Source of the DNA: an uncultured Alphaproteobacteria bacterium
GTDB lineage: Bacteria; Pseudomonadota; Alphaproteobacteria; Rhodobacterales; Rhodobacteraceae
NCBI GenBank assembly: GCA_902531755.1
Contig: CACAFI010000002.1
Location: forward strand, 12,321-76,320
Direction of reading: 5' to 3'
DNA length: 64,000 nucleotides
The position numbers and the translations under genes were made by a program. Shown piece after piece: positions 1-26,876 of the stretch. The notes beneath the pieces were generated by a model that saw nothing but the letters and a program-made list of their open reading frames with translations, did no database searches and was not told the origin of the DNA. Positions within the stretch are counted from its first letter, which is position 1. Every line of letters starts with the position of its first letter.

Positions 1-1554
1 GCTCAACTCACCAGAGACGTCCCAATAAATTGCTCTTCTACCCGCTAATCCCGCAATGAACCCTGCACTATTTATAGTGAAACAAATACTCAAATCCGCG
101 GCAAAACAACTAGGAACCATTCTTGAGTATTTTGTAGAAACAATACACCTACCACATGACATAAGTTGATTTAAATCACTGGAGATTAATTCATCTTGTT
201 TTATTTTCTCAAAAGCTGCACCTTTTGATTGAATTATAATTCCATAGTCCGACTGATTTCGTATATATTTGAATATCCATCTATAAAACAAAAGAACTTC
301 GTTAGTCGTTGAGTCAATTTCTGTATGGCTGTGTGTACTATCCAGTATTGTGAAAACAGAAGTAACTTCCGAAGGGAAATTCTTCCTAATATTCTGAGCA
401 CTTCTGATATCTGCAGGAAGGATATTTTCTCCGCATATTAATCCCGTTTGAACCATGTAATCATACTTATAATTATGGCAGTTAAAATACCCGTCATTAT
501 AATCTCCCCAGGAGAACACCAAATCTGCAAATCCTACATTAAAATAAGAAATTGGGTAGTGATCAACTGACCAATGATTCCAAATAAAAATGCCTTCCTC
601 TTTTTTAACTGCTAATGCTAAACAAAGAGGGAGTGGCCAACATTCTTGATGCTGATGAACAACCTTTACATTATATTTTTTTATTATGCTTCTGTACCAT
701 TCAACAACGAAAACCAAATAAAGTTGTATTAAATACAAAGTTAATCCATTTCCCTTGAGTGTTCCTTGCATTTTTACTCTTAAAAACATTTTGAGAAGAT
801 TAATTATACTTACCTTACTTCTAAATCTCCCATTAAGGTTCACCCATGGAAATTTATGTTTTTCAATAATCTTTACATTATCTTCTGAAAACTTATCATC
901 TTTTCTTTCAAAGTATAGAACTACCCGACCTCCGTCCAATCCTGTAGAAGGATACCAAAAAAGGTGCCCCGCATGAGGGTATCTACTGAAAATATTTGAT
1001 ATATACAGAGCAAATATTTTACTTCTTTTATCATTAGCACCAATGTTTGTACTTTGTGGAAATATATGTGTATAGCCCAACAAGAGATCAAAAATTGCTT
1101 TGGCAACCAATAAGAATGGTAGAAAAACTTCCATTAAATTTATCGTTCGTGATACCGTCAAATGTTTCACTTTTGGCATATTTGAAAGCCAAATCTTAAA
1201 AATAGGGAAAGTATCGAGATAAATTGTTACCTTTTTCTGGACAGGCATACTATTTACGAAATTTCTCATTAAAAAATATAAATCTGTTTTATGTCTTATT
1301 CTCGTTAGGTACCAAGAATGGATAATTCTGCTCCAGAAGTCCTCTTTCTCAAAATAACCATTTATTTTAAGTTCCTTATCAGAAAGATACGACTTTACTA
1401 ATTGCCAGTTCAGTTCTTCCGTTGTGTAACGAATAGCCGAACCAGTTTCATCTACTCTATTGATAGATCCTAGATCGATTTGCTCCAAAAGACTTGAGCA
1501 TAAGCCAAAAGAGTTCAGAAGTTTTCTAGCAAGTGTAGAACTGTAAATGTACAT
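1..1554 (-). CDS. Hypothetical polysaccharide-island protein, 3' end beyond window (possible GT-B/capsule-synthesis-like enzyme)
   Basis: Absent from the supplied ORF track because it has no stop inside the window. I reverse-complemented and translated 1554->1 codon by codon. ATG at 1554..1552 (MYIYSSTLARKLLNSF...) stays open for 518 codons (...RYPHAGHLFWYPSTGLDGGRVVLYFERK...FSWGDYNDGYFNCHNYKYDYMVQTG...FIAGLAGRRAIYWDVSGELS). No diagnostic motif recognised. Confidence 0.55.
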   Translation of the reverse strand, partial: MYIYSSTLARKLLNSFGLCSSLLEQIDLGSINRVDETGSAIRYTTEELNWQLVKSYLSDKELKINGYFEKEDFWSRIIHSWYLTRIRHKTDLYFLMRNFVNSMPVQKKVTIYLDTFPIFKIWLSNMPKVKHLTVSRTINLMEVFLPFLLVAKAIFDLLLGYTHIFPQSTNIGANDKRSKIFALYISNIFSRYPHAGHLFWYPSTGLDGGRVVLYFERKDDKFSEDNVKIIEKHKFPWVNLNGRFRSKVSIINLLKMFLRVKMQGTLKGNGLTLYLIQLYLVFVVEWYRSIIKKYNVKVVHQHQECWPLPLCLALAVKKEEGIFIWNHWSVDHYPISYFNVGFADLVFSWGDYNDGYFNCHNYKYDYMVQTGLICGENILPADIRSAQNIRKNFPSEVTSVFTILDSTHSHTEIDSTTNEVLLFYRWIFKYIRNQSDYGIIIQSKGAAFEKIKQDELISSDLNQLMSCGRCIVSTKYSRMVPSCFAADLSICFTINSAGFIAGLAGRRAIYWDVSGELS

Positions 1555-1661
1555 AATTTGCAAATTGGGGTCCTTAAACTTAAAGAAAAAAACAAAAAGC
1601 AAGCGCCAGAGATTTATTTTCTCCCAAATTAAAATATCTCTGTACTTTTTTTTAGACAAAG

Positions 1662-4331
1662 CTAAAGAGCTAATTTTGGAATTGGAGCTATCGCCGGGGA
1701 CAAACCCCTCTCAACCAACATATCGCAGACGTTGAGTAAAAAATAATCTCTATACCTAGCAGAGATAACTTGCACTCCTAAGGGAAGGTCATCAGGTCCA
1801 AGAAAAGCGGGCAAATTTACACTTGGGACATAGCAAAGAGACCAAATTAAACTAGGGTCTATTTTTTCTCGAATGTTAGGCCCTTTCTGAGCAATCTCTG
1901 CTGTTGAGTTAGATACCATAATGTCATACTGAAATAACAGCTTATTTAATATTGCAGCGAGGTTAGCTTGCTTACCTAGTGCCGTTCGGTATTGATCGGC
2001 ACTTATCTGGTTCCCTCGATCTATCATTGCTCTTGTAGTATCACTAATTAGTTTACTTTGATTTTTATGCTCTGCCTTAAAATAGTACGAGATGGATTTA
2101 TCATAGATAATTGAATGTATCAAATGCGCTTCTTCAAATTCGCTTGGCAACCTTATTTCTTCTACATTATGCCCAAGAAAAGAACATTTATTCACAAAGT
2201 TTTGTAGCTTATTTTTGGTATAATCAGCCATTTCATTCCAGGCATGTGTTACTGGAACAGCTATTTTTAGAGAATTTTTCTTTAACATTTGATTGGTTTT
2301 ATTTTCTAAATAACGATTAACAAAAGGATAATTTTTTCCTCTTACTCTTATCGTATCTAAAGCCATTCTTAAATCATTTACTTCTAATCCCATAAATGTA
2401 ATGTGATCCAAAGTATCTGCGGTCTTAAGCACTCCTGTTCTTGGGATTATACCAAATGAAGGCTTCATACCGTATATTCCAACATAACTCGAGGGTCTAA
2501 TAGTCGAGCCTGCTGTCTGTGAACCCAAAGATACCGGCGCCATTCGAGTGGCAACTGCAACTGCAGAACCACTAGAGGATGTTCCAGGTGAACGAGTTAG
2601 ATCATAAGGATTTTTAGTTAAACCAGGGTGATCTATTGCAAATTCTGCGGTCACAGTTTTACCTAAAATGATTGACCCCTCAAGCCTCAGTTTATTTACA
2701 CATCTGGCATCATTACCTGGACAAAATCCTTTCCAAGATTTACTACCCATCTGAGTTGGATAATCTGCAGTATTGAATATATCTTTAATTGCAAATGGAA
2801 GACCACTGATATCACCTGTAAATTTATTTCGCATATTTGCATAATCAAGAAGTTTGGCTTGTAATAACGAATTTTCGAAATCATACTCAACCCATGCATT
2901 TACAGACTCTTCAACTTTTTTGTATTGTGAGTAATACGATCTTACAAGAGCTTCGATCGATATGGTTTTGCTATTAATTTTCTTTACAATCTGTGTAGCT
3001 GTTAGTTCATGAAGTTTCTGGGAACCATCGTTTTCTTGATATTTTCTACTGTCATAGTTTCTCAAAATCTTTTTTGCTTCGTGGTTCATCAAACCAAAGT
3101 TTGGAAAAACTCTAGGTGCTTGAAGGCCTAAATGTCTTCTATTTTCACGATTTATTGGAGACTTAGGATCAAGTATTTTTTGAATGGAATCATTCACGGG
3201 ACGATCCGAATCTATTGTCATATCGTCGGTAGCAGGTAAATTTCTTTTTGCGGCATCTTCTCTTTGAGCTTCCAAAACAGCTATAAATTTATCTTCCGTT
3301 ATCCCTGTTATTTTAGAATAATAACTCAAAATCTTTGGCTTAACGGGGTCTGTCTGTTTTTGAATTTCATTAGCCTCTTCAACAGTCATTAGTCCTGCTC
3401 TTACATCTTGCATGGCAAAATCTGTCCCTCTACCAAAACCTCTTTTTATATATTTTGCATAATCATGTACTCCAGGCATGATGCACTCAACACTCTTATA
3501 TTGTTTATAGGTTCCCTCAACATCCTCTTCTTTCCAATCTAAATAGTCTCTAACAAACTCCGTTTGCCTTTCAGCATCCCAAAAAATAAAATCTCCTAGA
3601 AAAATTCTTTTAAGCCCAACTGCCTCTATTTCCTCTTTTGTAGGAGACTTAAAAGGTGCTAGATCTTTTTTTGATATATCTGCACAAAGCATCTCTTCTG
3701 GTTTAACTTTAGCCGACATTTGCAAAAAATAATCTATTGAGAAATCTGGGTTGTCCAAGTAGGTAGCTTTACCCGAATTTTCAGCAACTGACTCACCATA
3801 GATCAATAAAGGTATTTTAAACTTACAAGCAATATTTAATGGGAAAGCCTCAACCCCAGTGTGGCAATGCCAGCAAGCATCACCTATTTTATACAATGAC
3901 TCCCTTGCTAACTTATTAACAAGGCCTCGTTTTGGAGTAAATTCTAGATGATCAACATTTGTCTTTTCTAAGATATTTTGAAGGTTGTATCTTCCCGTTT
4001 CTGTAAACCAATTATGACTAAAGGTTACCGCTAAAGGTTTTAGGTCATAGATCTCCGTGAGAAGATATAACTGAAAAGCGCTATCTTTCCCTCCAGAGAT
4101 CGGAACTATACAGTCGTAATTATCGCCAGCATAAGTTTTATATTTATCTAATATTTTTCTTAGGTTTTTTTCACGGGTATCCCATGAGATCTTCATCTTC
4201 TGTTCTGAGGACCTGCAAGCCTTACACAAACCAAGCTTATCAAAATCAATATTCTCACTAGTTTCGGGATAACCACACCTTACACAAGTTATCATACCTT
4301 TAAACATTTGATCCTCTACTTCCATAATCAA
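1662..4331 (-). CDS. Fusion protein: N-acetyl-sugar amidotransferase (PP-loop ATPase, WbpG/PseA-like) + amidase-signature (GatA-like) domain
   Basis: The N-terminus has a Zn-ribbon (CVRCGYP...CKAC) and a PP-loop (VPISGGKDSAF), typical of the LPS N-acetyl sugar amidotransferase family. The C-terminal ~480 aa carry the amidase signature (AIKDIF..., PGTSSSGSAVAVA...GSQTAGSTIRPSSYVGIYGMKPSFG). The ORF start is TTG at 4331, overlapping the upstream TGA; ATG at 4325 is an equally plausible start. Confidence 0.85.
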   Translation of the reverse strand: MIMEVEDQMFKGMITCVRCGYPETSENIDFDKLGLCKACRSSEQKMKISWDTREKNLRKILDKYKTYAGDNYDCIVPISGGKDSAFQLYLLTEIYDLKPLAVTFSHNWFTETGRYNLQNILEKTNVDHLEFTPKRGLVNKLARESLYKIGDACWHCHTGVEAFPLNIACKFKIPLLIYGESVAENSGKATYLDNPDFSIDYFLQMSAKVKPEEMLCADISKKDLAPFKSPTKEEIEAVGLKRIFLGDFIFWDAERQTEFVRDYLDWKEEDVEGTYKQYKSVECIMPGVHDYAKYIKRGFGRGTDFAMQDVRAGLMTVEEANEIQKQTDPVKPKILSYYSKITGITEDKFIAVLEAQREDAAKRNLPATDDMTIDSDRPVNDSIQKILDPKSPINRENRRHLGLQAPRVFPNFGLMNHEAKKILRNYDSRKYQENDGSQKLHELTATQIVKKINSKTISIEALVRSYYSQYKKVEESVNAWVEYDFENSLLQAKLLDYANMRNKFTGDISGLPFAIKDIFNTADYPTQMGSKSWKGFCPGNDARCVNKLRLEGSIILGKTVTAEFAIDHPGLTKNPYDLTRSPGTSSSGSAVAVATRMAPVSLGSQTAGSTIRPSSYVGIYGMKPSFGIIPRTGVLKTADTLDHITFMGLEVNDLRMALDTIRVRGKNYPFVNRYLENKTNQMLKKNSLKIAVPVTHAWNEMADYTKNKLQNFVNKCSFLGHNVEEIRLPSEFEEAHLIHSIIYDKSISYYFKAEHKNQSKLISDTTRAMIDRGNQISADQYRTALGKQANLAAILNKLLFQYDIMVSNSTAEIAQKGPNIREKIDPSLIWSLCYVPSVNLPAFLGPDDLPLGVQVISARYRDYFLLNVCDMLVERGLSPAIAPIPKLAL

Positions 4332-5032
4332 CTAATCCTTTTCGCGATGGCTTCAGCAACCTCAAAATCCAATGGTGTATCGATATTGACTTGAAACTCA
4401 TCGTTAATAATCAGGAAACCACAACTATCTGGATTCACTAACTGCCTATTTTTCTGAAGAAGCGCTGTCTTCGTTACATAAACTGAACCGTTGGGTTTAT
4501 AAATACTAGGGAACTCTTGTCGTTCCATATTGAAAACATTAGAGGATTTTTCATACTCAAAAACTGTACATAATTTTTTTTTGTCTAATTTAAACATCCA
4601 CCAAGGAGGATATTCCTGCTTTGTTATTGTAATTAAACTGTCAAACTTATCCGAAGTAAACTTTTTGATGGCTTTATCAATATGTTCAGCTTGCCTAAAA
4701 GGAACAGTGGGTTGCAGCAACACTATAATATCGTAAATTATACCATCAATTTTCTCTATCTCCTTAATAGCATGCATAAGTATTTCTGGCGTATGGGTTT
4801 TATCACCTGCTAATTCTTTTGGGCGTTCGAAAGGAACATCGACGCCAAAACTTTTACCAACTTCTGCTATTTTTTTATCTTCAGTGGAAAGAATAAGTCG
4901 GTCTATAAGCCTACTTTTTTTTGCCTCAATAATAGTCCAGGCCAGCAGAGGCTTTCCCGACAACATCTTCGTGTTTTTTTGTGGCACACCCTTTGATCCT
5001 GCTCTAGCTGGTATTACTCCAAGTATTTTCAA
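4328..5032 (-). CDS. Acylneuraminate (nonulosonate) cytidylyltransferase, CMP-NulO synthetase family
   Basis: N-terminal MKILGVIPARAGSKGVPQKN is the CTP_transf_3 (NeuA/PseF/LegF) signature. Size is 234 aa. Confidence 0.85.
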   Translation of the reverse strand: MKILGVIPARAGSKGVPQKNTKMLSGKPLLAWTIIEAKKSRLIDRLILSTEDKKIAEVGKSFGVDVPFERPKELAGDKTHTPEILMHAIKEIEKIDGIIYDIIVLLQPTVPFRQAEHIDKAIKKFTSDKFDSLITITKQEYPPWWMFKLDKKKLCTVFEYEKSSNVFNMERQEFPSIYKPNGSVYVTKTALLQKNRQLVNPDSCGFLIINDEFQVNIDTPLDFEVAEAIAKRIS

Positions 5033-5125: not shown

Positions 5126-6148
5126 TCAAGAGTTAATTGACACTACTGTTTTGTTATCAGATGACCTAACCAAAGCATCTAGTATCCTATAAGACTCCAA
5201 CCCGTGTTTAGCTGAAAGTGGATGTTCTAAACCATCATATTCAGCATCTGCCAATTCTTCGGCAATTTTTGTGAAAAGTGTTTTATTATTTCTAGGTTTA
5301 AAAATTTTCTTTTTATCTAAACTATACGATAGAGTTGAGGTAGATGGGGTTTTCGTTTTAAATAACTCGAGCACATTTCCGTTATCAGATACCCTTATTT
5401 TTCCCTTTCGGCATAAAATCTCCATTTCAAAGTAGGTGAATGCTGTTAGTGCCGTATTTATAAAATTACCAATAATTCCGTTTTTAAATGCAATTTGAGC
5501 ATTGACTCTGGGATCCTCAATTGTGTAGTTATCTGAGTATGGTAGACTTTGCACTGTTTCTTCCTCTAATGTGGCTTTAACCCAATCGACATCACCGAAG
5601 ATTTTTCTTAAAAGGTCTATCATATGAATCCCAACTGCATGAAGTCCAGAACTACACCAAGCATTTACAGTTATTGCATCTCCTTCCAAATCACTTTGAA
5701 AAATCTTTTCCAATTTCATGTATATTTCAGTTAGGCGCCTGTTATTGATATAAAATAACACTTCGTTTTCTCTACAAACTCTTACCATCTCTTCCGCACT
5801 TTGTAATGAATTTGCAATAGGCTTTTCGCAAAAAATCATTTTTGGTCTATTTATATGCTGAGCAACAGTTTGCACTATTTCGCTATTGAATTCATAAGGC
5901 ACTGCTATTGAAACCAATTCTGGTTTTATGTCTGATAGAGCTTTCCCAATATCTTGGTATCTTCCTTTTATTCCAAATTTATTTGCAAATGTCTCAGAAG
6001 CTTCTTGTTGGATATCATACACGCCTTTTACATCAAATGCTGGATTTGATAAATAGGCTCCAATGTGGGAACAAGGTTTCTTTCTAAATGGGTCATCCTC
6101 ATTTAACCCAGCAATTCTGCCGCATCCGATTATCAAAACATTTTTCAT
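5126..6148 (-). CDS. Gfo/Idh/MocA family NAD(P)-dependent oxidoreductase
   Basis: Rossmann N-terminus MKNVLIIGCGRIAG and an internal EKP motif (FCEKPIA). ATGA overlap with the upstream GNAT gene. Confidence 0.8.
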   Translation of the reverse strand: MKNVLIIGCGRIAGLNEDDPFRKKPCSHIGAYLSNPAFDVKGVYDIQQEASETFANKFGIKGRYQDIGKALSDIKPELVSIAVPYEFNSEIVQTVAQHINRPKMIFCEKPIANSLQSAEEMVRVCRENEVLFYINNRRLTEIYMKLEKIFQSDLEGDAITVNAWCSSGLHAVGIHMIDLLRKIFGDVDWVKATLEEETVQSLPYSDNYTIEDPRVNAQIAFKNGIIGNFINTALTAFTYFEMEILCRKGKIRVSDNGNVLELFKTKTPSTSTLSYSLDKKKIFKPRNNKTLFTKIAEELADAEYDGLEHPLSAKHGLESYRILDALVRSSDNKTVVSINS

Positions 6149-6729
6149 AAGTTTCTTTTAGCTTTAACTTGTTTCCAATTAAATTTTGTCAACTGCAATA
6201 GATACCTATCGAAGAAGTCCCCATTCTTAGTCACATCTTTTCTAAGAAACGTTTTTTCTTTGAAGCCACATTTTTCTGCTATTTTCAAAGATGGTAAGTT
6301 TTCTCTAAAAATTTTTGTATGTATTTTTTTCAACTTTAAGTCATTAAAGGCGTAATCTGTTAAGAGAAACCATGCTTCAGTTCCCATCCCTCGACCCCAA
6401 TAATCTTCTTCCCCTATAATGATCCCAAACTGTGCAGAACCTTTAGCCCAATCTATTTTGTGTAGCGCTGTAGTCCCTACATGGGAGCTACTTTTTATGT
6501 CGCAAATTGCTAAAGCTATATCAGTTTTGGAGGAATTTATTTCTTCAAAGAATGCAACTTGTTTAGCAGCAGTATTTTCTGAATCGCCTTTCGCCATATA
6601 CTTAGTGACATTTTTGTTGTTGAGCCATCGCCACCAATTTCCTACAGCATCTTTTTTTTTCAGCGATCGTAAAAAAACTTTTTTTCCTAAAATATAAATA
6701 TCAGTCTTGGTATGAGGCTCATTTTTCAT
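6145..6729 (-). CDS. GNAT family N-acetyltransferase (RimJ/RimL-like; possible PseH-type sugar N-acetyltransferase)
   Basis: GNAT core WGRGMGTEA...LKKIHTKIFRENLPSLKIAEKCGFKE. Size is 194 aa. Confidence 0.75.
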   Translation of the reverse strand: MKNEPHTKTDIYILGKKVFLRSLKKKDAVGNWWRWLNNKNVTKYMAKGDSENTAAKQVAFFEEINSSKTDIALAICDIKSSSHVGTTALHKIDWAKGSAQFGIIIGEEDYWGRGMGTEAWFLLTDYAFNDLKLKKIHTKIFRENLPSLKIAEKCGFKEKTFLRKDVTKNGDFFDRYLLQLTKFNWKQVKAKRNL

Positions 6730-8589
6730 TTAGGTGTCTATCAACTCTCTAAACCATAATTCCAAATTTAAATACTGAAAAATGTGGAAACTTGTTATTG
6801 GGTTTTCTTGATCACAAAATTTATTATATTCTTTAATCACTTCTTTTTGATTAAAGATACCCCTTTGTCCAAATGACTTTGATGAAAAAATGTCATTGAC
6901 CCAGCCCTTTAGTTCACTTTTCAACCAACTTCTTTGAGGATCAACCACACTTCGTTTTGGTCGTTGTAAAATTTCTTTGGGAAGTAGTTCTTCACTTGCT
7001 TTACGCATAAAATAGCGCTGTTGATTATTAAAAACCCTCGCTTCCTCTGAAGTGCAAAAAGAAAATTCGACTATTCTATGGTCAAGAATTGGCACTCTAG
7101 TTTCTCGTCCAACAGCCATGGAACCTCTATCTGCATATCTCAGCACTCTTGGAAGATTATGATAAAATAAATCAATGTATTGAGCGTTAAGCAAATGAGA
7201 ATCAAATGGACGTGGAAACGTCACTCGCTTAGGTACTTCATAACTATTAAAATACTTACTGAAGCATTTTCTTTTAATAAAAGATATTCCGTCCTGCGTT
7301 GAGGAACCAATTCTTGTAATAGCACCAATAACATTGAAAAGTTTTTTTAATCTATCCTTCTCATCAATTTGATATAAGTCCATGTATTTAAGCATGCTAT
7401 CAAAAGCAGGACCAGTTCCTTCTCTCATTATAACATCCATTAGATTTGCCATAAGATAATATTCAAATCCTGCCCCAACATGGTCACCGCCATGCCCCTC
7501 TAACACAACTGTAGATCCGGAAGGTGCATATTCTTCATAAAGTTTATGAGCAGCGAGAACTCTAAGTGAAGTCACAGGCATTTCTTCATTAAACAAAACT
7601 TTACTAAATAAATCTGGTACTTCAGAAGAACTTAGTTTAGATACTTTCTGCTCTAATCCCAACCATTGAGCGACCTCTGACGCATAATCTGCTTCCCCAG
7701 CTTCACCCGTTTCAAAATCATAAGTATACGCCTCAAGACCTTGGACTGAATTGTTTTTTACCAATTGGGCAGCCAATATTGACGAGTCGATACCTCCACT
7801 CAAGAAAACTCCAACAGGAACGTCACTTCTCACTCTCAATTTTATTGAGTCCTCTAAAAGATTTTTATACGCTTCGATTGCTTCTACTGTGTTTATTTTA
7901 TCTCGTTCTTTTACTATCGTAATTAAGTCCCAATATTTATTTAGTGTTCTATTTCCGTAAAAGTCAATTTCCATGTAATGCCCTGGAACCAGGCTCATAA
8001 TACCATCAAAAAAGGTTTGGTCCGAATGATCAATCAAGCCCCACTGAAGAAAATCTGATATAACGCTATAATTTGGTTTTTTTGGGTAATTGGCAGAAAA
8101 TAATGCCTTGATTTCTGAGGCAAAATAAAAACGCCCTTCATTATATCCAAAATACAACGGCTTAATTCCTATCCTGTCTCTTGCTAGAAACAAAACTCGT
8201 TTTTTCTTATCCCAAATAGCAAAAGCGAACATTCCATTAAATAACTTTAAACAGTTACTTCCATGCTCGATATAAGCATGTAACATCGTTTCTGTATCAG
8301 TTTGAGAAATCCAGTTTTTATTCTTAAGTTTTTTTCTGATTTCCGGCCAATTATAAATTTCTCCATTAAATGTTATGACATAATTTTTATCAGGCGATAC
8401 CATGGGTTGGTTTCCAGCTTTAGTCAAATCGAAGATCGATAGTCTTCGATGGCCTAATGCAATGACATCATCAGAATATGTCCCCTGACCATTAGGTCCC
8501 CTGTGTGCCATACTTTCAACCATAGATTTTACTCGCCATTCATCTACGGGCCTGGACTTGAAATCGAATATTCCTGCAATACCACACAT
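6730..8589 (-). CDS. Asparagine synthase (glutamine-hydrolysing) family amidotransferase, AsnB/WbpS-like
   Basis: N-terminal nucleophile MCGIAGIF and PP-loop FLSGGIDSS. Size is 619 aa. Confidence 0.85.
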   Translation of the reverse strand: MCGIAGIFDFKSRPVDEWRVKSMVESMAHRGPNGQGTYSDDVIALGHRRLSIFDLTKAGNQPMVSPDKNYVITFNGEIYNWPEIRKKLKNKNWISQTDTETMLHAYIEHGSNCLKLFNGMFAFAIWDKKKRVLFLARDRIGIKPLYFGYNEGRFYFASEIKALFSANYPKKPNYSVISDFLQWGLIDHSDQTFFDGIMSLVPGHYMEIDFYGNRTLNKYWDLITIVKERDKINTVEAIEAYKNLLEDSIKLRVRSDVPVGVFLSGGIDSSILAAQLVKNNSVQGLEAYTYDFETGEAGEADYASEVAQWLGLEQKVSKLSSSEVPDLFSKVLFNEEMPVTSLRVLAAHKLYEEYAPSGSTVVLEGHGGDHVGAGFEYYLMANLMDVIMREGTGPAFDSMLKYMDLYQIDEKDRLKKLFNVIGAITRIGSSTQDGISFIKRKCFSKYFNSYEVPKRVTFPRPFDSHLLNAQYIDLFYHNLPRVLRYADRGSMAVGRETRVPILDHRIVEFSFCTSEEARVFNNQQRYFMRKASEELLPKEILQRPKRSVVDPQRSWLKSELKGWVNDIFSSKSFGQRGIFNQKEVIKEYNKFCDQENPITSFHIFQYLNLELWFRELIDT

Positions 8590-8652: not shown

Positions 8653-9699
8653 TTACTTGGTTGCTAAAACTCTTATGCCGCCATCACCAAACTTCAATTT
8701 TACGTCTTTATCATCTGGAAACATACTAACGTCAATATCGAATAATTCTGAGCTCTTCATAACCTGTATGTTATTGAAGCCCATATTTCTAAGACGTCTT
8801 TCATTTTCTTCAAATGATATAAAGTGATATTTTGCGTAAAAAATATCCATCCACAAATGTATATCAGGAATATTCAATTTTTTTATAATTTCAAAAGTAT
8901 CCCGGAAAGGAATGCCCACAAATGATTTCTGAATAATATCCCAAACGTCATGATAAATACCGCCACTTCCTTCTACATATAGCCAAAACTTCCCTCCAGG
9001 CTTTAAAACCCTGTATATTTCTTGAAGAGCTTTTCCAGGATTATCTAGATGATGAAGAACGCCATTACACGTTGCAAAATCAAAATACTCCTCCGTGAAA
9101 CTTAAATTATAAGCGTTTTGAACCGAAAAATTGGTATCTTTTATTTTCATTTCGACTGCCAATTTTTTAGCAAACTCAATGGATTTCTGTCCGGGGTCAA
9201 TACCCCAAACTTTTGCCCCAAGGCTTGCCATACAAAAACTAAACCTACCTGTACCACAACCAATATCAATACACTTTTTTCCAGTGAAAAACTTTCTATC
9301 CAGATTGTTGAGTTTTAGCCTTCCTTTTATCACATCGATCCATTTTTTATAATTATTTAAAGGATCTGATAACGTTAGCGTTCTCCAAGTATCGTTAAAA
9401 AGCTCGATATGCAGGTCATCTCGTGCGTCTCCCTCTTTTTGGGCACTAAAATTTTCAGTTTCGGAGTCATTCAAGTGTATAGACGCGATAAAGTGGTTCA
9501 TGATATCTAAATAAGAATTTTGTCTATCAAATATTTTTTTTATGTAGATGTTAGGGTCCGAGTTGGTAAAAATGTTATTATCTATTTCACGTTGTAAAGA
9601 TATCGTAGAAATTATGCGTACTGCTAGTGAAAGCCCTGACTTTTTAAAGGTTCTTAACTTTTCTTCATAAGTTTCTATATATTTTTTCGTATCTACCAT
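8653..9699 (-). CDS. Class I SAM-dependent methyltransferase with ~150-aa N-terminal extension
   Basis: Motif I CIDIGCGTGRFS and post-I/II regions (VLHHLDNPGKALQEIYRVLKPGG). Confidence 0.8.
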   Translation of the reverse strand: MVDTKKYIETYEEKLRTFKKSGLSLAVRIISTISLQREIDNNIFTNSDPNIYIKKIFDRQNSYLDIMNHFIASIHLNDSETENFSAQKEGDARDDLHIELFNDTWRTLTLSDPLNNYKKWIDVIKGRLKLNNLDRKFFTGKKCIDIGCGTGRFSFCMASLGAKVWGIDPGQKSIEFAKKLAVEMKIKDTNFSVQNAYNLSFTEEYFDFATCNGVLHHLDNPGKALQEIYRVLKPGGKFWLYVEGSGGIYHDVWDIIQKSFVGIPFRDTFEIIKKLNIPDIHLWMDIFYAKYHFISFEENERRLRNMGFNNIQVMKSSELFDIDVSMFPDDKDVKLKFGDGGIRVLATK

Positions 9700-9765: not shown

Positions 9766-10938
9766 TCAAATATTTTTATGATTTTTTCTTATCAAAATAG
9801 TGATTATCCAGAATCTGGATTGTAAATAAAAAATCGGCGAGAGTAACAGTTTATCTAGCCTAAGGATATATCTTAAAGTGATAACTATCAATGGGTTAAG
9901 TTTCCAAAGATACAACATTAAGACACCTTTAGGCTTGTGAGTTTTTTTCATAATCGACAACTCTCCTTTTAATGGTAGAAACAGTGTTTTCATGTCAAAA
10001 GAGTTTTTGCCGAAGCAATTATAAGAATAACTCTCAATATACTTTCCAAAAAAATATTCAATCAATTTCTTTTCATTAAATGAAATTTCTGATTTCCAGC
10101 GATTTATTACTTCTAAGGATTTTCCTTGCACAGGTTTGCCGGATGAACTATTTCCCAACCAGGGGTGACCACCAAGAGTACTTTCATTCAAACACGGCTT
10201 AAAAGATATTTTCAGCCAGTCTGCAAGACTACTAACTGTAGTCTCATAGTCTGAATGCAAGTCTTCATTTTTCAACCGAAACCATTTTTCTTTTTTTCTC
10301 ACAAAAGAAAATCTTTCAATTTGTTGATAATCGAGTTTTAAATCTTTAATAGCTTTTATTAAGAGGTTGGAATATCCCAATCGTCTTCTTTGAACAAAAT
10401 TACCATTAGAATTAAGAATTTGTTTTTTTATTGACATAAAATTTGCCCTGGGATCTCTTACGATTTCTATAAATTTAGAATTTTGAAAGTCTTTTGCTAA
10501 TTGGTTTAACATTGTCGCTCTTCCTGGAAACTCGATAATTACCTTTATTTTATTAAGATCCTGTCCGATGGTTATTCCATATGCTTCATGCAACGCATAG
10601 AAAACATTCAATTTTGATAGTCCGTCTCTCTTCAGTAAGCTTTTGAAAGATTTCTTATATTGTTCAATGTCGCAATTGGAAAATTTTTCTGTTCCCGATT
10701 GCACTCCATAGAGAATTCCTGTTTTGAAGTTTGAGATTTTTGTTTTAGTTGTCCAAACATAAACCATTTCATCAAGGCTCAGATCTCTTCCCTCACAAAG
10801 ATATTCCCAATTAATACTGAACTTCAATTCCATAGGTAGCATGAGTATTTCTGGATGAGAGTCGAGGATGCTTTGGACAAATCCACCACCAGCTCTTCCT
10901 GGACAAATCAAAAAACCTATTGGCAAAGATTTTAGCAA
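9766..10938 (-). CDS. Sulfotransferase-fold protein with hydrophobic C-terminal tail (divergent 5'-PSB loop)
   Basis: The N-terminal loop CPGRAGGGFVQSILDSHPEI sits where the PAPS 5'-phosphosulfate loop is expected. A 3'-phosphate motif IEIVRDPRANFMS is present. The C-terminal ~50 aa are hydrophobic. TTG start. Paralog of 32528..33688. Confidence 0.65.
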   Translation of the reverse strand: MLKSLPIGFLICPGRAGGGFVQSILDSHPEILMLPMELKFSINWEYLCEGRDLSLDEMVYVWTTKTKISNFKTGILYGVQSGTEKFSNCDIEQYKKSFKSLLKRDGLSKLNVFYALHEAYGITIGQDLNKIKVIIEFPGRATMLNQLAKDFQNSKFIEIVRDPRANFMSIKKQILNSNGNFVQRRRLGYSNLLIKAIKDLKLDYQQIERFSFVRKKEKWFRLKNEDLHSDYETTVSSLADWLKISFKPCLNESTLGGHPWLGNSSSGKPVQGKSLEVINRWKSEISFNEKKLIEYFFGKYIESYSYNCFGKNSFDMKTLFLPLKGELSIMKKTHKPKGVLMLYLWKLNPLIVITLRYILRLDKLLLSPIFYLQSRFWIITILIRKNHKNI

Positions 10939-10945
10939 TCTGCCG

Positions 10946-11671
10946 CTACCATAGTCTTTTCAAAGAGGAGTAATAAGACAAATCACTCTCACTATCCACT
11001 TCATACCAAGAATCCCCAATGGGTATTGCGGATATGGTAATACCTGCATTTAGTAGCCTTCTTAAAAGAGTAGTAATATCCATTCCCATTTTTTCTTCAA
11101 AAGAAAATTCGTTTATAATACTCAAAATTTCTTGCCACCCAATAGGCTCAATCTTGAATAACCCCATGAATTGACCCTCTATTTCCTTCAAATTCTTAGG
11201 TTTTCTTCCTATATCTGTAAGAAGTCCTTGAGAATTAATTTTAAAACTTTCAGCGTCAGATAATGGGTTAGTAAATCTTTTTGACCAAAGAGAGAACCAG
11301 TTTTTATCATAGGCCATTCCAATTGGGTCTTTTAGGATTTTTAATCTTTTGACGGCATCGCGGGAATATACAATATCCGAATAACTTATAATGCATGAAT
11401 ACTTTTCCAGCCAGTCCCTAGCAGTTAATAAAGAAGCCAAGATATTTGAGTTTTGCCAATTGCTATTTACAAAATATCGTAAATCTTCGGAAAACATTTG
11501 CCTTTTGTATCCGGTAACAATTGCGATTTCCTTAATTCCGGCACCTCGAAGCGAACTTAATTGCCAGTCAATTAATCTTTTCCCATGTAGTTCTATAAAG
11601 CATTTAGGTTGATTTATAGTGAGGTCTCGCATCCTACTACCTCGACCTGCTGCAAGTATAATAGCTTTCAT
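10946..11671 (-). CDS. Nucleotidyltransferase (cytidylyltransferase family; Cj1416-like candidate CTP:phosphoglutamine cytidylyltransferase)
   Basis: MKAIILAAGRGSRM...QPKCF NTP-transferase signature. Size is 241 aa. ATGA overlap with the upstream GATase gene. Confidence 0.75.
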   Translation of the reverse strand: MKAIILAAGRGSRMRDLTINQPKCFIELHGKRLIDWQLSSLRGAGIKEIAIVTGYKRQMFSEDLRYFVNSNWQNSNILASLLTARDWLEKYSCIISYSDIVYSRDAVKRLKILKDPIGMAYDKNWFSLWSKRFTNPLSDAESFKINSQGLLTDIGRKPKNLKEIEGQFMGLFKIEPIGWQEILSIINEFSFEEKMGMDITTLLRRLLNAGITISAIPIGDSWYEVDSESDLSYYSSLKRLW

Positions 11672-14600: not shown

Positions 14601-14606
14601 GGAAAA

Positions 14607-15389: not shown

Positions 15390-15399
15390 ATAATTTATT

Positions 15400-18900: not shown

Positions 18901-19539
18901 TTATTTACCTATCATTATTGGTTTAGCTGGAACGCCCACTTGCGTCTGATTTTTTTCTATTATGCTCTTAACAACAGTCGCACCAGCTCCTATTCTCGTC
19001 CCTTGTGCCAGTGTTTTCTTCTCGACAATTGTCGCATTTGAACCGATAAATACTTTGTCTAAAACTTCACATCTTCCACAAATAATTGCTCCTGGTGCAA
19101 CCTCGCAGAAATTGCCGATTGAAGTTTCATGTTCGATATTTGCGTAGCTGTTGATGATATTAAAATCACCTATCTCTACTTCAGGTCCGATATTAGCAAA
19201 AGGACCAATAAAATTACCGCGTCCAATTTTTGCCGATTTATCAATAAGAGCACTATTATGAATAATATTAATAGTCTCAAAAGATCTTAACGTAGAATCT
19301 AATCTAAGCTCATATCGAAGCCTACCATCTCCAACAGCGATAAAAATGTAAGTATCAGAAGCTTTATATCTGGAAAGTAAACTAATAGAGCCTAAAATAG
19401 GCACGCCTAATATTGTTTCGTTGAGACCCTTATATCCAAGGTCCAAAATTCCCAAAATATTCCACAAGCCTAAACTCTTTGCGGTAGAGATCACTGGTCT
19501 CGAGTGCCCACCGGCACCGATGATTAGCAATGAACTCAA
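18901..19539 (-). CDS. Sugar N/O-acetyltransferase, NeuD/PglD family (left-handed beta-helix)
   Basis: N-terminal LLIIGAGGHSRPVI and C-terminal hexapeptide repeats (IGDFNIINSYANIEHETSIGNFCEVAPGAII). TTG start overlapping the upstream TGA. Confidence 0.8.
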   Translation of the reverse strand: MSSLLIIGAGGHSRPVISTAKSLGLWNILGILDLGYKGLNETILGVPILGSISLLSRYKASDTYIFIAVGDGRLRYELRLDSTLRSFETINIIHNSALIDKSAKIGRGNFIGPFANIGPEVEIGDFNIINSYANIEHETSIGNFCEVAPGAIICGRCEVLDKVFIGSNATIVEKKTLAQGTRIGAGATVVKSIIEKNQTQVGVPAKPIMIGK

Positions 19540-20648
19540 AGGACACCCTCTTCAGACATAAATTTTTTCAGAAGGTTAACTACACAACTCCGTTCTTCTT
19601 GTTTCATCTCTGCCCAAATTGGTATATCAACAAATGTTTGAAAGCATTTTATAGCCTCCTTAAACTCATTCGCTTTCAATCCAAACTTCTTGAAATAAAA
19701 TGGCTGGATATGGATTGGAGGAAAAGATAAACGAGTCTCAATTTGATTTTTCTCAAAATATTTTAATAAGCAATCTCTCCTTTCCGGACTTAAATTTATA
19801 GAATAATTATACCAGCTAGGTCTCCCAACATAAGATGGGACATAAGGTGTCCGAATCCCATCTATTTTTCCGATTTCTTTAGAATAAAAGTTAGCGATAG
19901 AAACTTTTTTCTCCAATATTGTGTCAATACGCTTAAGTTGTTCTACGCCTAAGGCAGCTAAAATATCAGTCATTCTGTAATTATTACCAAGTAATGTATG
20001 GTTGTATCTACCTTCCTGCCCTTGATTTCTTATTATTTTTAGTTTTTTAAATAATTCGTGGTCATTCGTAGTAACTATCCCACCCTCACCTGTAGTTATA
20101 TTCTTGTTTGCAAAAAAACTAAAAGAATGAGCAGTAGCTTGAGAACCGACAAAGCTTCCTTTATATATGGAGCCATAAGACTCTGCGCTGTCAGATATAA
20201 AAGGAATACCTGTTTCTGAACCCAATTCTTTGAAAGCATCAAAATCTACGGGCAGGCCCTTCATATCCACTGTCATAATTGCTTTTGTATTCGAACTTAT
20301 TTTTTCTCTTACACTTTCTACTGTGACGTTATATGTCAAAGGATCATTATCACAAAAAACAGGTGTGGCCCCTTGATAAAGAACGACATTAGCCGACGAT
20401 ATATAGGTCAATGTTGGGATAATTACTTCATCTCCAGGACCAATATCAAGTGCCATAAGTATAGCATGCAAGGTTGAAGTTCCATTATTCATAGCAATCG
20501 AATATCTGGACCCAGTATATTCACAAACCATATTTTCAAACTCTTGTACTTTTTTACCCATACTAATCCAACCAGACTTCACAACGTCATAAACCGCTCT
20601 TGCTTCTTCTTCTTTTATAACTGGAGATGCTACTGGAATATATTTCAT
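19536..20648 (-). CDS. DegT/DnrJ/EryC1/StrS family PLP-dependent sugar aminotransferase (PseC/PglE/LegC-like)
   Basis: 370 aa, with SFFANKNITTGEGG around the PLP-lysine and family-typical N-terminal region. Confidence 0.85.
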   Translation of the reverse strand: MKYIPVASPVIKEEEARAVYDVVKSGWISMGKKVQEFENMVCEYTGSRYSIAMNNGTSTLHAILMALDIGPGDEVIIPTLTYISSANVVLYQGATPVFCDNDPLTYNVTVESVREKISSNTKAIMTVDMKGLPVDFDAFKELGSETGIPFISDSAESYGSIYKGSFVGSQATAHSFSFFANKNITTGEGGIVTTNDHELFKKLKIIRNQGQEGRYNHTLLGNNYRMTDILAALGVEQLKRIDTILEKKVSIANFYSKEIGKIDGIRTPYVPSYVGRPSWYNYSINLSPERRDCLLKYFEKNQIETRLSFPPIHIQPFYFKKFGLKANEFKEAIKCFQTFVDIPIWAEMKQEERSCVVNLLKKFMSEEGVL

Positions 20649-22754: not shown

Positions 22755-23807
22755 TTAAACACTAAGAAAGTCATCCAAAGATAATGGTGTTCCTTCTCCT
22801 ATTGGTCTCGACAATTTTTTTCCGACAAGCATTGGTAGAAAAGAAGGAGGCAATCCATTGCCAGGTCTCATTACTTTTACTAACGCCTCATGAAACTTTT
22901 CTCCTTCTTTTATATCTCTAGATGCTATCAAACTTCGTCTTAAGACCTTTGACGTATTCTCTTCTTCCTTAGTTTGGAATTTGAGATACGAGCCTAACGC
23001 TAATTTACACTCCCTCAGATCAAATATGAGCGCTTTAAGTTCAGATGGTTCTAACGAAGCTTTCTGGTCTATTCCGGGCAACTTTCTTGACAAGGTAAAG
23101 TGTTTCTCAATAGCGACTGCTCCCAGAGCAATAGCTGCAATGGAGGTTGTGTTTGTAGGAGTGTGATCCGAAAGACCAACGGGGACGTCAAAAACTCTTT
23201 GATATGTATTAAGCACCCGCAAGTTTGCGTTTTCGGGCTTCGATGGGTAGTTAGAGGTACATTGAAATAAAAGGAGAGGAGATTTAGAGCGTTGGAATAT
23301 TTTAACAGCCTCAATCACCTCGTTAAAGCTTGCCATACCCGACGAGAGTAGAACAGGCAGTTTACTATCTGCTAATTCCTCTAAAAATGGAATATTGGTT
23401 AAATTACAAGAGCTAACCTTTATAGCTTCGAGTTTAAGAGAAATAAGATCTCTAAGACTCCAAACTTCAAAAGGCGTTGATAGAAAGTCAATTTTTTCTT
23501 TTTTACAGTAATCAAAAAGATCCGAAGTTTGCTCCAAAGTTATTTCGCAACTCTTTATTATCTCTTTCTGGCTCTTATCCGAAAACTGATCCTGTTTTTG
23601 ATAGTCAGCTTTACCTGCACTTGGTGAAATATACTTATCTACGGAAAAGCTTTGTAACTTTACGCAATCAGCTCCACTCTCTTTTGCAGCATCAATCATT
23701 TCTTTAGCTAAGTGTATATCACCGTTATGGTTTATACCTATTTCTGCGATAACATATGGATTAGTGCTTTTTAAAATTTTATCTATCATATTCTTCCCAT
23801 TATTCAT
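22755..23807 (-). CDS. neuB: N-acylneuraminate/nonulosonate synthase (NeuB/PseI/LegI family) with C-terminal SAF domain
   Basis: IAEIGINHNGDIHLAKEMIDAAKESGADCVKLQ, GLSDHT, and a C-terminal SAF-like LIASRDIKEGEKF. Confidence 0.9.
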   Translation of the reverse strand: MNNGKNMIDKILKSTNPYVIAEIGINHNGDIHLAKEMIDAAKESGADCVKLQSFSVDKYISPSAGKADYQKQDQFSDKSQKEIIKSCEITLEQTSDLFDYCKKEKIDFLSTPFEVWSLRDLISLKLEAIKVSSCNLTNIPFLEELADSKLPVLLSSGMASFNEVIEAVKIFQRSKSPLLLFQCTSNYPSKPENANLRVLNTYQRVFDVPVGLSDHTPTNTTSIAAIALGAVAIEKHFTLSRKLPGIDQKASLEPSELKALIFDLRECKLALGSYLKFQTKEEENTSKVLRRSLIASRDIKEGEKFHEALVKVMRPGNGLPPSFLPMLVGKKLSRPIGEGTPLSLDDFLSV

Positions 23808-26868: not shown

Positions 26869-26876
26869 TGGTTATC

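What the first reader, a model, noticed from the sequence alone, without database searches (positions are those of the whole stretch)
1662..4331. Fusion of a WbpG/PseA-type acetamidino-forming amidotransferase with an amidase-signature domain
SEEN: one 889-aa ORF joins an N-acetyl-sugar amidotransferase module (Zn ribbon CVRCGYP...CKAC, PP-loop SGGKDSAF) to a complete amidase-signature domain. The Ser-cisSer-Lys elements look intact (AIKDIF; TSSSGSAVAVA; GSQTAGSTIRP).

ESTABLISHED: WbpG (Pseudomonas O5 O-antigen) and PseA (Campylobacter) family enzymes are implicated in converting N-acetyl to acetamidino groups. They are typically encoded next to HisH/HisF-like glutaminase/cyclase pairs that deliver ammonia. 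GatA-type amidase domains act as glutaminases in GatCAB.

INFERENCE: here the HisH/HisF partners appear to be replaced by a fused amidase that generates ammonia in cis. No hisH/hisF-like genes are visible in the island. I do not recognise this architecture as described. It predicts an acetamidino-modified (probably nonulosonic-acid) sugar.
Basis: partly seen in the sequence, partly recalled or inferred. Interest (0 to 1): 0.7.

Follow-up and report, generated by a model that had tools for sequence, protein, structure and literature searches.

The report
Sugar amidine synthetase fused to amidase
One long gene in a marine cyanobacterial cell-surface sugar island joins an enzyme that converts N-acetyl groups on sugars into charged acetamidino groups to an amidase that most likely supplies its ammonia. 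The same pairing, usually as two adjacent genes, occurs in many bacterial phyla, but I found no paper that describes it.

Summary
It carries a WbuX/NASAT-type PP-loop N-acetyl sugar amidotransferase domain (TIGR03573, 306 bits against a cutoff of 203) and a complete amidase-signature (AS) domain (PF01425, 235 bits).

The fusion is not rare or unique. There are at least 70 full-length fused protein clusters in public data. In 61 of 79 genome loci that carry both parts, they are separate, tightly coupled adjacent genes.

All amidase-linked WbuX domains form one clade. A search seeded with the amidase alone found WbuX next door in 62 of 64 informative metagenome loci.

HisH/HisF-like genes are absent from the window. 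They appear in only 9 of 83 loci, each time beside a second, stand-alone WbuX.

The Ser-cisSer-Lys triad is invariant in 88 sequences. AlphaFold gives pTM 0.89, which implies a confident inter-domain arrangement.

Most likely the amidase is a dedicated ammonia-generating partner that replaces HisH/HisF, acting in a nonulosonic-acid pathway.

The amide donor is unresolved. The glutamine-binding residues of GatA are not conserved, and the domain resembles malonamidase E2 as much as GatA.

I class it as a new variant of a known kind. It is widespread, annotated only generically, and biochemically untested.

The parts
1662..4331 (-). Whole 889-aa ORF (887 aa from the first ATG at 4325): a fusion of a WbuX/NASAT-type amidotransferase and an AS amidase
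   Evidence: Uninterrupted homologues in independent assemblies.
3276..4295 (-). WbuX / N-acetyl sugar amidotransferase (NASAT) domain, aa 13-352
   Evidence: TIGR03573, 306 bits against a cutoff of 203. Its only PDB sequence relative is 8WEX, LpNASAT, E 3e-33.
4215..4286 (-). Tetracysteine Zn-ribbon motif, CVRC...CKAC (C16, C19, C36, C39)
   Evidence: C36 and C39 align with LpNASAT Cys79 and Cys82. Zn binding in LpNASAT is reported in PMC10607449.
4080..4097 (-). PP-loop SGGKDS (aa 79-84), the ATP pyrophosphatase motif
   Evidence: Invariant in 39 fused homologues.
3090..3191 (-). Flexible linker, about aa 381-414. This is where the stop/start junction lies in two-gene homologues.
   Evidence: AlphaFold pLDDT is below 50 only here. 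Split genes end and start around this position.
1734..2948 (-). Amidase-signature (AS) domain, aa 462-866
   Evidence: PF01425, 235 bits, whole model. PDB sequence relatives: malonamidase E2 at E 3e-42 and GatA at E 3e-37. Foldseek: GatA 3h0l_A at E 6e-30; MAE2 with TM-score up to 0.91.
2784..2786 (-). Catalytic Lys516 (equivalent to SaGatA K79 and MAE2 K62)
   Evidence: Conserved in 100% of 88 family sequences.
2577..2579 (-). cis-Ser585 (equivalent to SaGatA S154 and MAE2 S131)
   Evidence: Conserved in 100% of 88 family sequences.
2505..2507 (-). Nucleophile Ser609 (equivalent to SaGatA S178 and MAE2 S155)
   Evidence: Conserved in 100% of 88 family sequences.
2496..2498 (-). Arg612, at the position of MAE2 Arg158. 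SaGatA has Gln181 here.
   Evidence: 99% conserved. R158 was a mutagenesis target in MAE2 structures (listing).
4328..5032 (-). PseF-like CMP-nonulosonate cytidylyltransferase. Its stop overlaps the start of the fusion.
5126..6148 (-). Gfo/Idh/MocA oxidoreductase, a conserved neighbour of the WbuX-amidase pair
   Evidence: Present in 62 of 83 loci.
6145..6729 (-). GNAT N-acetyltransferase (weak PseH-like match). It probably installs the N-acetyl group that is then amidinated.
   Evidence: Present in 61 of 83 loci, usually directly upstream of WbuX.
19536..20648 (-). PseC/LegC-like aminotransferase of the nonulosonic-acid pathway
   Evidence: Present in 70 of 83 loci.
22755..23807 (-). NeuB-family nonulosonic acid synthase
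   Evidence: Present in 50 of 83 loci.

Best explanation
The gene encodes a self-contained, two-active-site amidotransferase of a nonulosonic-acid (pseudaminic/legionaminic-type) pathway.

Proposed mechanism:
1. The N-terminal WbuX/NASAT domain (Zn ribbon plus PP-loop) uses ATP to activate the carbonyl oxygen of a sugar N-acetyl group, giving AMP and PPi.
2. The C-terminal amidase-signature domain (Lys516, cis-Ser585, Ser609) hydrolyses a small carboxylate-bearing amide. The donor is probably glutamine or asparagine, but its identity is unresolved.
3. The ammonia passes across a fixed inter-domain interface to the synthetase site.
4. There it displaces AMP and forms the acetamidino group.

The amidase therefore does the job that the HisH/HisF-like pair (WbuY/WbuZ, HisH2/HisF2) is thought to do for classical WbuX/WbpG enzymes.

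The fusion in this window is one of at least two independent fusions of what is usually a translationally coupled two-gene pair.

Shown here: domain identities, intact catalytic motifs, obligate gene pairing, mutual exclusivity with HisH/HisF, and the nonulosonic-acid gene context.

Inferred: ammonia transfer, the amidine product, and the donor.
For: Domains and motifs:
- establish both domains and their motifs.

Fusion and pairing (Rosetta-stone evidence):
- At least 70 fused protein clusters exist.
- 18 genome loci are fused and 61 are split. Split pairs show 4-nt ATGA overlaps or a single in-frame stop.
- The amidase-only profile retrieved 80 metagenome loci. Of the 64 with at least 1.2 kb of upstream sequence, 62 carry WbuX on the same strand.

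Relation to HisH/HisF:
- All amidase-linked WbuX domains form one clade, distinct from the HisH/HisF-linked ones.
- HisH/HisF are absent from the window and from all 80 metagenome loci.
- They are present in only 9 of 83 genome loci, always next to a second stand-alone WbuX.
- The literature supports HisF2/HisH2 delivering ammonia to WbpG, including a WbpG-HisF2 pull-down (PMC11445079). A WbuX / AglZ-HisF2 / HisH gene triad appears in PMC11340318.

Amidase competence and structure:
- The triad K516/S585/S609 is 100% conserved in 88 sequences.
- AlphaFold gives mean pLDDT 87.4 and pTM 0.89, with only the linker disordered.
- Foldseek's best hit is GatA, the one AS amidase known to channel ammonia.

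Pathway context:
- NeuB, PseF-like, PseC/LegC-like, PseH-like, NeuD-like and LegB-like genes lie in the same operon-like array.
Against: - There is no biochemical evidence for any member. Amidine formation by WbuX-family enzymes itself rests mainly on genetics (PMC10607449).
- The glutamine-binding residues of SaGatA (Tyr309, Arg358, Asp425; bioRxiv 10.1101/733030) align with A/S/C, I/M/L and C/A/S/G in this family.
- The TIGR00132 gatA score is 190 against a cutoff of 481.
- Malonamidase E2 is an equally close or closer relative. It is a free-standing hydrolase, not an ammonia-channelling subunit.
- By my recollection, some WbuX-family enzymes such as Campylobacter PseA lack any linked glutaminase gene. 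Absence of HisH/HisF alone therefore does not prove the amidase is needed.
- Fused AS domains can also act sequentially on a partner's product, as allophanate hydrolase does in urea amidolyase (established knowledge).
- The tunnel could not be examined because no coordinates were returned.
Confidence: 0.6

Rival explanations
1. Sequential-step model. The amidase does not supply nitrogen. It acts on the sugar itself, before or after the WbuX step, for example by hydrolysing or transferring an N-acyl or amide substituent on the nonulosonic acid. The fusion would then reflect substrate hand-over, as in urea amidolyase.
For: - WbuX domains are also found fused to enzymes that would act sequentially: GNAT, a formyltransferase fragment and an APS-kinase-like domain.
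- GatA-type glutamine-binding residues are not conserved.
- AS enzymes such as ClbL do acyl-transfer chemistry (listed).
Against: - The pair is obligate and mutually exclusive with HisH/HisF at the level of the individual WbuX gene. A partner swap predicts this pattern; an extra tailoring step does not.
- The Arg at the MAE2 Arg158 position suggests a small carboxylate-bearing amide rather than a bulky CMP-sugar. This reading relies on recalled MAE2 literature.
Confidence: 0.15
2. Same ammonia-supply logic but a different product. This WbuX clade would use amidase-derived ammonia for another ATP-dependent amidation, for example of a different N-acyl group (formamidino or another acylamidino), or at a different position or precursor than in PseA/WbpG.
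For: - Loci such as L001, L003, L010 and L013 carry two WbuX paralogues of different clades. The two must differ in substrate or position.
- The substrate pocket is reported as highly variable in the family (PMC10607449).
Against: - The protein scores well above the TIGR03573 cutoff.
- A GNAT N-acetyltransferase sits directly upstream in most loci, which fits an N-acetyl substrate.
Confidence: 0.15
3. The amidase is a structural or regulatory partner, and the synthetase uses free ammonium.
For: Some WbuX-family enzymes have no linked glutaminase gene (recollection about Campylobacter PseA, not tested here).
Against: The catalytic Lys, cis-Ser and Ser are 100% conserved, and about 80 other columns are at least 93% conserved across phyla. 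That is the signature of a working enzyme.
Confidence: 0.05
4. Artefact: two genes wrongly joined by a sequencing error at the junction.
For: Most homologues are two genes, some separated by only one in-frame stop codon.
Against: The closest relatives from independent assemblies are all uninterrupted: P0001 (read on 16 contigs, the three shown being Tara Oceans scaffolds), P0002, P0003/P0004 and the Cyanobium NAT70 MAG L004. A second, unrelated fused clade also exists.
Confidence: 0.02

Closest known systems
WbuX/WbpG/PseA/LfnA N-acetyl sugar amidotransferases (TIGR03573; structure 8WEX, LpNASAT) with their HisH/HisF-like partners WbuY/WbuZ (HisH2/HisF2)
   Same: The same synthetase domain with PP-loop and tetracysteine Zn site. 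The same predicted reaction (N-acetyl to acetamidino). The same kind of surface-glycan gene cluster.
   Different: The partner is an amidase-signature enzyme instead of the class-I glutaminase HisH plus the HisF barrel. The amidase-linked WbuX domains form their own clade. In this window the partner is fused in cis.
GatCAB tRNA-dependent amidotransferase (GatA is an AS-family glutaminase that channels ammonia to GatB)
   Same: An AS-fold amidase with a Ser-cisSer-Lys triad is proposed to generate ammonia for a second ATP-dependent active site. GatA is the best Foldseek hit.
   Different: There is no GatB or GatC. The acceptor enzyme is a PP-loop ATP pyrophosphatase, not a GatB-type kinase/transamidase. 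The GatA glutamine-binding residues Tyr309, Arg358 and Asp425 are not conserved. The gatA HMM score is far below its cutoff.
Malonamidase E2 (Bradyrhizobium japonicum; PDB 1OBI, 1OCL and others)
   Same: It is the closest solved sequence relative over the whole domain (E 3e-42) and has the highest TM-score (0.91). It shares the S-x-I-R-P arrangement, with Arg at the MAE2 Arg158 position.
   Different: MAE2 is a free-standing catabolic hydrolase. Identity is only about 28%. The PRK08310 score of 129 is below its cutoff of 391. The family has its own invariant residues (N520, G539-N-D-A-R543, K636, D639, H736, Y743) that MAE2 lacks.
PP-loop amidotransferases with fused glutaminase domains: GMP synthetase (class-I GATase), glutamine-dependent NAD+ synthetase (nitrilase-type) and asparagine synthetase B (Ntn-type). 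PurL/FGAM synthetase is the analogue for amide-to-amidine chemistry.
   Same: The same design logic: ATP activation of a carbonyl followed by attack of ammonia made at a second site in the same polypeptide or complex.
   Different: None of these uses an amidase-signature domain as the ammonia generator. This statement rests on established knowledge, not on a test done here.

Membership tests
WbuX / NASAT N-acetyl sugar amidotransferase (TIGR03573) | HMM score above the curated cutoff | tested here: met
   306.4 bits against a cutoff of 203.2, aa 13-352, model positions 1-342 of 344
WbuX / NASAT N-acetyl sugar amidotransferase (TIGR03573) | PP-loop SGGxDS | tested here: met
   S79-GGKD-S84. Invariant in 39 homologues.
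WbuX / NASAT N-acetyl sugar amidotransferase (TIGR03573) | Tetracysteine Zn motif CxxC...CxxC | tested here: met
   C16, C19, C36, C39. The second pair aligns with LpNASAT Cys79 and Cys82 (motif as defined in PMC10607449).
WbuX / NASAT N-acetyl sugar amidotransferase (TIGR03573) | Catalyses conversion of N-acetyl to acetamidino | not testable with these tools
   Needs an enzyme assay or glycan MS.
WbuX-WbuY-WbuZ (HisH/HisF-assisted) acetamidino system | HisH-like and HisF-like genes linked to the WbuX gene | tested here: not met
   tblastn with HisF and HisH queries from L001 and L003 found no hit in the 64-kb window at E <= 0.01. They are absent from 74 of 83 related loci.
Amidase signature family (PF01425) | Full-length HMM match | tested here: met
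   235.5 bits against a cutoff of 27, model positions 2-445 of 445
Amidase signature family (PF01425) | Ser-cisSer-Lys catalytic triad | tested here: met
   K516, S585 and S609 align with SaGatA K79/S154/S178 and MAE2 K62/S131/S155, and are 100% conserved in 88 sequences.
GatA-type glutaminase (TIGR00132) | HMM score above the curated cutoff | tested here: not met
   190 bits against a cutoff of 481. Only the N-terminal two-thirds align.
GatA-type glutaminase (TIGR00132) | Glutamine-binding residues Tyr309, Arg358 and Asp425 (SaGatA numbering) | tested here: not met
   They map to A735, M769 and S827. The family columns are A/S/C, I/M/L and C/A/S/G. Caveat: an invariant D825 lies two residues upstream of the Asp425 column, in a gapped and ambiguous stretch.
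GatA-type glutaminase (TIGR00132) | GatB and GatC partners | tested here: not met
   Nothing matching GatB or GatC appeared among the roughly 40 of the window's 58 ORFs that I ran against family libraries or in the related loci. The partner is WbuX.
Malonamidase E2-like amidases (PRK08310) | HMM score above the cutoff, and Arg at the MAE2 Arg158 position | tested here: inconclusive
   PRK08310 scores 129 bits against a cutoff of 391, so this part is not met. The Arg158 equivalent, R612, is 99% conserved, so this part is met.
Nonulosonic acid (Pse/Leg-type) biosynthesis cluster | NeuB-family synthase, CMP-NulO cytidylyltransferase, PseC/LegC-type aminotransferase, N-acetyltransferase and 4,6-dehydratase in one array | tested here: met
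   Window genes 22755-23807, 4328-5032, 19536-20648, 6145-6729 / 18901-19539 and 16021-16983. None reaches an equivalog cutoff, so Pse versus Leg is not assigned.

The most novel reading that the evidence does not exclude
The WbuX-amidase pair is a previously unrecognised class of amidotransferase. After GatCAB, it would be only the second system in which an amidase-signature enzyme acts as a dedicated ammonia-channelling subunit, and the first in which that subunit serves a PP-loop synthetase. Its MAE2-like pocket, which is not GatA-like, may use an amide donor other than glutamine.
Probability: 0.5. Interest if true: 0.65.

Novelty: new variant of a known kind. Interest (0 to 1): 0.5.

Why it matters
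Acetamidino groups place a positive charge on surface sugars such as O-antigens, flagellin glycans and nonulosonic acids. They affect phage and antibody recognition. How the nitrogen is delivered has been proposed, but the reaction has never been reconstituted.

A single-polypeptide enzyme that makes its own ammonia would be the simplest system in which to reconstitute sugar amidine formation in vitro.

It would also add a fourth type of ammonia-generating module to the PP-loop amidotransferases, and a second biological role for ammonia-channelling AS amidases.

In practical terms, hundreds of genes now labelled only 'amidase' next to 'N-acetyl sugar amidotransferase' could be re-annotated as one functional unit. 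The locus also predicts charged nonulosonic acids on abundant marine bacteria such as picocyanobacteria and Pelagibacteraceae, where surface glycans shape phage susceptibility.

Tried and rejected
- Plus-strand reading of the ORF: rejected, it is full of stops.
- Exact look-up of the window protein in the assembly index: not on record.
- A hidden extra domain in the linker: phmmer of aa 353-462 against the roughly 330-aa inserts of the 1120-1183-aa homologues found nothing. Those inserts are instead degenerate second WbuX-like domains.
- 'HisH/HisF co-occur with the fusion, so the amidase cannot be the ammonia source'. I considered this, then rejected it. NCBIfam showed that the unannotated 387- and 426-aa genes beside HisH/HisF are second, stand-alone WbuX paralogues, and they belong to a different clade.
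- Assigning glutamine as the donor by homology to GatA: rejected, because the binding residues are not conserved.
- Assigning malonamate as the donor by homology to MAE2: not justified, since only Arg158 is shared and HMM scores are below cutoff.
- Tunnel analysis: not possible, because structure prediction returns no coordinates.
- Literature searches on six term combinations: no paper links an AS amidase to WbuX/PseA-type enzymes. This covers only the open-access library held here.
- Pfam search on the conserved 681-aa downstream protein: nothing found.
Full report
**1. Observation**

The ORF at 1662..4331 is real, but it lies on the minus strand. The plus strand is full of stops. The minus strand reads through 889 codons.

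It begins at a TTG that overlaps the stop of the upstream gene (TTGA). The first ATG is two codons further in.

NCBIfam places a WbuX/N-acetyl sugar amidotransferase domain at aa 13-352 (TIGR03573, E 3e-91, 306 bits against a cutoff of 203). Pfam places a complete Amidase domain at aa 462-866 (PF01425, E 1.7e-69).

All quoted motifs are present:
- Zn ribbon: C16, C19, C36, C39
- PP-loop: S79-S84
- Amidase elements: K516 in AIKDIF, S585 in GTSSSGS, S609 and R612 in GSQTAGSTIRP

The only solved relative of the N-terminal half is the Legionella NASAT structure 8WEX (E 3e-33). The paper on that structure describes the Zn-tetracysteine and PP-loop features and says nothing about the nitrogen source (PMC10607449).

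**2. Surroundings**

The window has 35% G+C throughout. The best homologues come from Tara Oceans contigs and from a MAG labelled Cyanobium sp. NAT70. A marine picocyanobacterium is therefore the likely source; this is inference.

The fusion ends a long minus-strand array that encodes a nonulosonic-acid pathway:

| Coordinates | Gene |
|---|---|
| 4328-5032 | PseF-like cytidylyltransferase |
| 5126-6148 | Gfo/Idh/MocA oxidoreductase |
| 6145-6729 | GNAT (weak PseH-like match) |
| 16021-16983 | LegB-like dehydratase |
| 18901-19539 | NeuD-like acetyltransferase |
| 19536-20648 | PseC/LegC-like aminotransferase |
| 22755-23807 | NeuB-family synthase |

None of these reaches an equivalog cutoff. 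I therefore do not choose between pseudaminic and legionaminic acid.

tblastn with HisF, HisH, WbuX and amidase queries found no hisH/hisF-like gene, no second WbuX and no second amidase in the 64 kb. The AsnB-type and class-I GATase genes in the island belong to other enzymes.

**3. The architecture is widespread, and usually split**

A search of 5.8 billion proteins returned at least 70 full-length fused clusters at 42-84% identity. These include RefSeq and UniRef entries named simply 'N-acetyl sugar amidotransferase', for example from Solidesulfovibrio alcoholivorans and Thermodesulfobacteriota.

A scan of one genome per GTDB species gave 425 confirmed stretches. The best 80 loci span these groups:
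- Pelagibacteraceae
- Prochlorococcus and other Cyanobacteria
- Verrucomicrobiota
- Acidobacteriota
- Chloroflexota
- Desulfobacterota
- Beta-, Gamma- and Alphaproteobacteria, including cultured Massilia, Pseudoduganella and Thalassospira
- Omnitrophota
- a Methanosarcinales MAG

ORF calling on these loci showed only 18 fused. In 61, WbuX (about 385-415 aa) and the amidase (about 450-470 aa) are separate adjacent genes. They are joined by 4-nt ATGA overlaps, by gaps of a few bases, or by a single in-frame stop followed by ATG. In two loci the order is reversed.

The window's fusion is therefore one form of a conserved two-component unit. This is the classic fused/split pattern that signals a physical and functional partnership.

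**4. Is the partnership specific?**

From the WbuX side, a neighbour-joining tree of 96 WbuX domains puts every amidase-linked copy, fused or split, in one clade. That clade is separate from the HisH/HisF-linked copies. Fused forms fall in at least two subclades, so fusion happened more than once. The tree is unbootstrapped.

From the amidase side, a profile built only from amidase sequences (A2) retrieved 80 metagenome loci. Of these, 72 carry WbuX on the same strand next door. Among the 64 loci with at least 1.2 kb of upstream sequence, 62 do. None has HisH or HisF within 4 kb.

**5. Relation to HisH/HisF**

The literature holds that HisH2/HisF2 deliver ammonia to WbpG, and a WbpG-HisF2 pull-down supports this (PMC11445079). 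WbuX / AglZ-HisF2 / HisH triads are recognised in polysaccharide clusters (PMC11340318). NCBIfam has dedicated models for the partner proteins, TIGR03572 and NF038364.

However, the unannotated 426- and 387-aa genes beside them are second, stand-alone WbuX paralogues, scoring 325 and 330 bits on TIGR03573.

Across 83 loci, HisH/HisF occur in 9, each time beside such a second WbuX of the other clade. The pattern is that each WbuX has its own partner module, either HisH/HisF or the amidase. A partner-swap model predicts exactly this.

**6. The amidase domain**

The triad K516/S585/S609 is 100% conserved in 88 fused and split sequences. About 80 further columns are at least 93% conserved. This is a working enzyme.

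By sequence, the closest solved protein is malonamidase E2 (E 3e-42 over the whole domain). GatA follows (E 3e-37, N-terminal two-thirds only). By fold, GatA 3h0l_A has the best E-value (6e-30) and MAE2 the best TM-score (0.91). No PDB entry covers both halves of the protein.

I checked the residues that bind glutamine in S. aureus GatA: Tyr309, Arg358 and Asp425 (bioRxiv 10.1101/733030). The SaGatA sequence I used was recalled from memory and then confirmed 100% identical to 2df4_A.

In an alignment to the family HMM, these residues correspond to A735, M769 and S827. The family columns there are A/S/C, I/M/L and C/A/S/G. One caveat applies: an invariant D825 sits two residues from the Asp425 column, in a gapped region.

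The family instead shares MAE2's Arg158 position (R612, 99% conserved), where GatA has Gln. From recollection of the MAE2 literature, Arg158 binds the substrate carboxylate. The only check here is that R158Q is one of the deposited mutants.

The conclusion is that the donor is probably a small amide bearing a carboxylate. Glutamine is plausible but not established.

**7. Structure**

AlphaFold2 run with the 39-sequence alignment gave mean pLDDT 87.4 and pTM 0.89. Only the linker (887-aa numbering 379-412) has pLDDT below 50.

A pTM this high is not expected for two roughly 400-residue domains unless their relative position is predicted confidently. This is inference, because neither PAE nor coordinates were returned. 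An ammonia tunnel therefore could not be tested.

**8. Interpretation**

My best explanation, at confidence 0.6, is a self-sufficient amidotransferase. The PP-loop domain activates a sugar N-acetyl group. The amidase generates ammonia from an amide donor and passes it across a fixed interface to form an acetamidino nonulosonic acid.

Rivals:
- The amidase performs a sequential tailoring step on the sugar (0.15).
- The ammonia logic is the same but the acyl group or position differs (0.15).
- The amidase is a non-catalytic partner (0.05).
- The fusion is a sequencing artefact (0.02).

**9. Comparison and novelty**

The system works like the WbuX/HisH/HisF system and like GatCAB, but it is a member of neither. 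The HisH/HisF criterion and all three GatA criteria were tested and not met.

It is a bona fide member of TIGR03573 and of the amidase-signature family.

Six literature searches found no paper connecting an AS amidase with WbuX/PseA-type enzymes. NCBIfam release 20 has no dedicated model for the partner amidase; only generic amidase models match, all below cutoff.

I therefore rate it a new variant of a known kind. It is widespread, present in databases under generic names, and functionally undescribed.

Interest is 0.5. Swapping of ammonia-generating modules is a familiar evolutionary theme. An AS amidase serving a PP-loop synthetase appears to be new, and it offers a one-protein route to reconstituting sugar amidine formation.

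Noticed in passing
window 10946-15960 (minus strand); also L004, L041, L084: A set of homologues of the Campylobacter O-methyl-phosphoramidate (MeOPN) pathway lies inside the nonulosonic-acid island. It comprises a Cj1418-like PRK05849 protein (12285-14600; 953 bits against a cutoff of 501), a Cj1417-like class-I GATase (11668-12348; weak NF045546 hit), a Cj1416-like nucleotidyltransferase (10946-11671), a Cj1415-like APS-kinase-family protein (15400-15960) and SAM methyltransferases (14607-15389, 8653-9699). MeOPN is described as rare outside Campylobacter (PMC3907429 abstract). Its presence in marine picocyanobacterial contigs may deserve its own look.
   Followed up: partly
proteins P0075-P0120 (about 600-650 aa) and P0009, P0012-P0016, P0019, P0037 (1120-1183 aa): Many WbuX proteins carry a second, degenerate WbuX-like domain whose PP-loop is destroyed (for example VDGSMSN or LTGSPAN in place of SGGKDS). 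It sits either N-terminal to the active domain or between the active WbuX domain and the amidase. It looks like a pseudo-enzyme duplicate, possibly mimicking the NASAT dimer.
   Followed up: partly
proteins P0079-P0082, P0087, P0085, P0104: Other WbuX fusions exist: GNAT-WbuX, APS-kinase-like-WbuX, and WbuX with a formyltransferase fragment.
   Followed up: no
window 1-1660 (minus strand, runs off the window); L084:12643-14688; L001:18203-20239: A conserved protein of about 680 aa with no Pfam or NCBIfam match is encoded in the same loci. It lies directly downstream of the fusion in the window and in L084, and about 5.5 kb downstream in L001. It could be the glycosyltransferase for the modified sugar.
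   Followed up: partly
window 9766-10938, 32528-33688, 33940-35010, 35021-35965: The island holds two Sulfotransfer_3-family genes, a sulfate adenylyltransferase and a truncated pyruvate-kinase-like gene. This suggests a sulfated glycan. A sulfotransferase next to a pyruvate-kinase gene also recurs in L001.
   Followed up: no
window 6730-8589 and 25795-28166: An AsnB-type glutamine-hydrolysing amidotransferase lies in the same island as TviB/TviC-like UDP-GlcNAc 6-dehydrogenase and 4-epimerase genes. This could make a hexuronamide (GalNAcA-amide type) sugar, which would be a second, independent amidation in the cluster.
   Followed up: no
L021 (uncultured Prochlorococcus AG-422-M20) compared with the window: A Prochlorococcus single-cell genome carries the split two-gene form at only 46% identity to the window protein. 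Both forms therefore circulate in marine picocyanobacteria, presumably through island exchange.
   Followed up: no
L094 (metagenome contig CEUS01041688.1): This is one of only two informative amidase-clade loci with no WbuX within 4 kb on either side. It is an exception to the otherwise obligate pairing.
   Followed up: no
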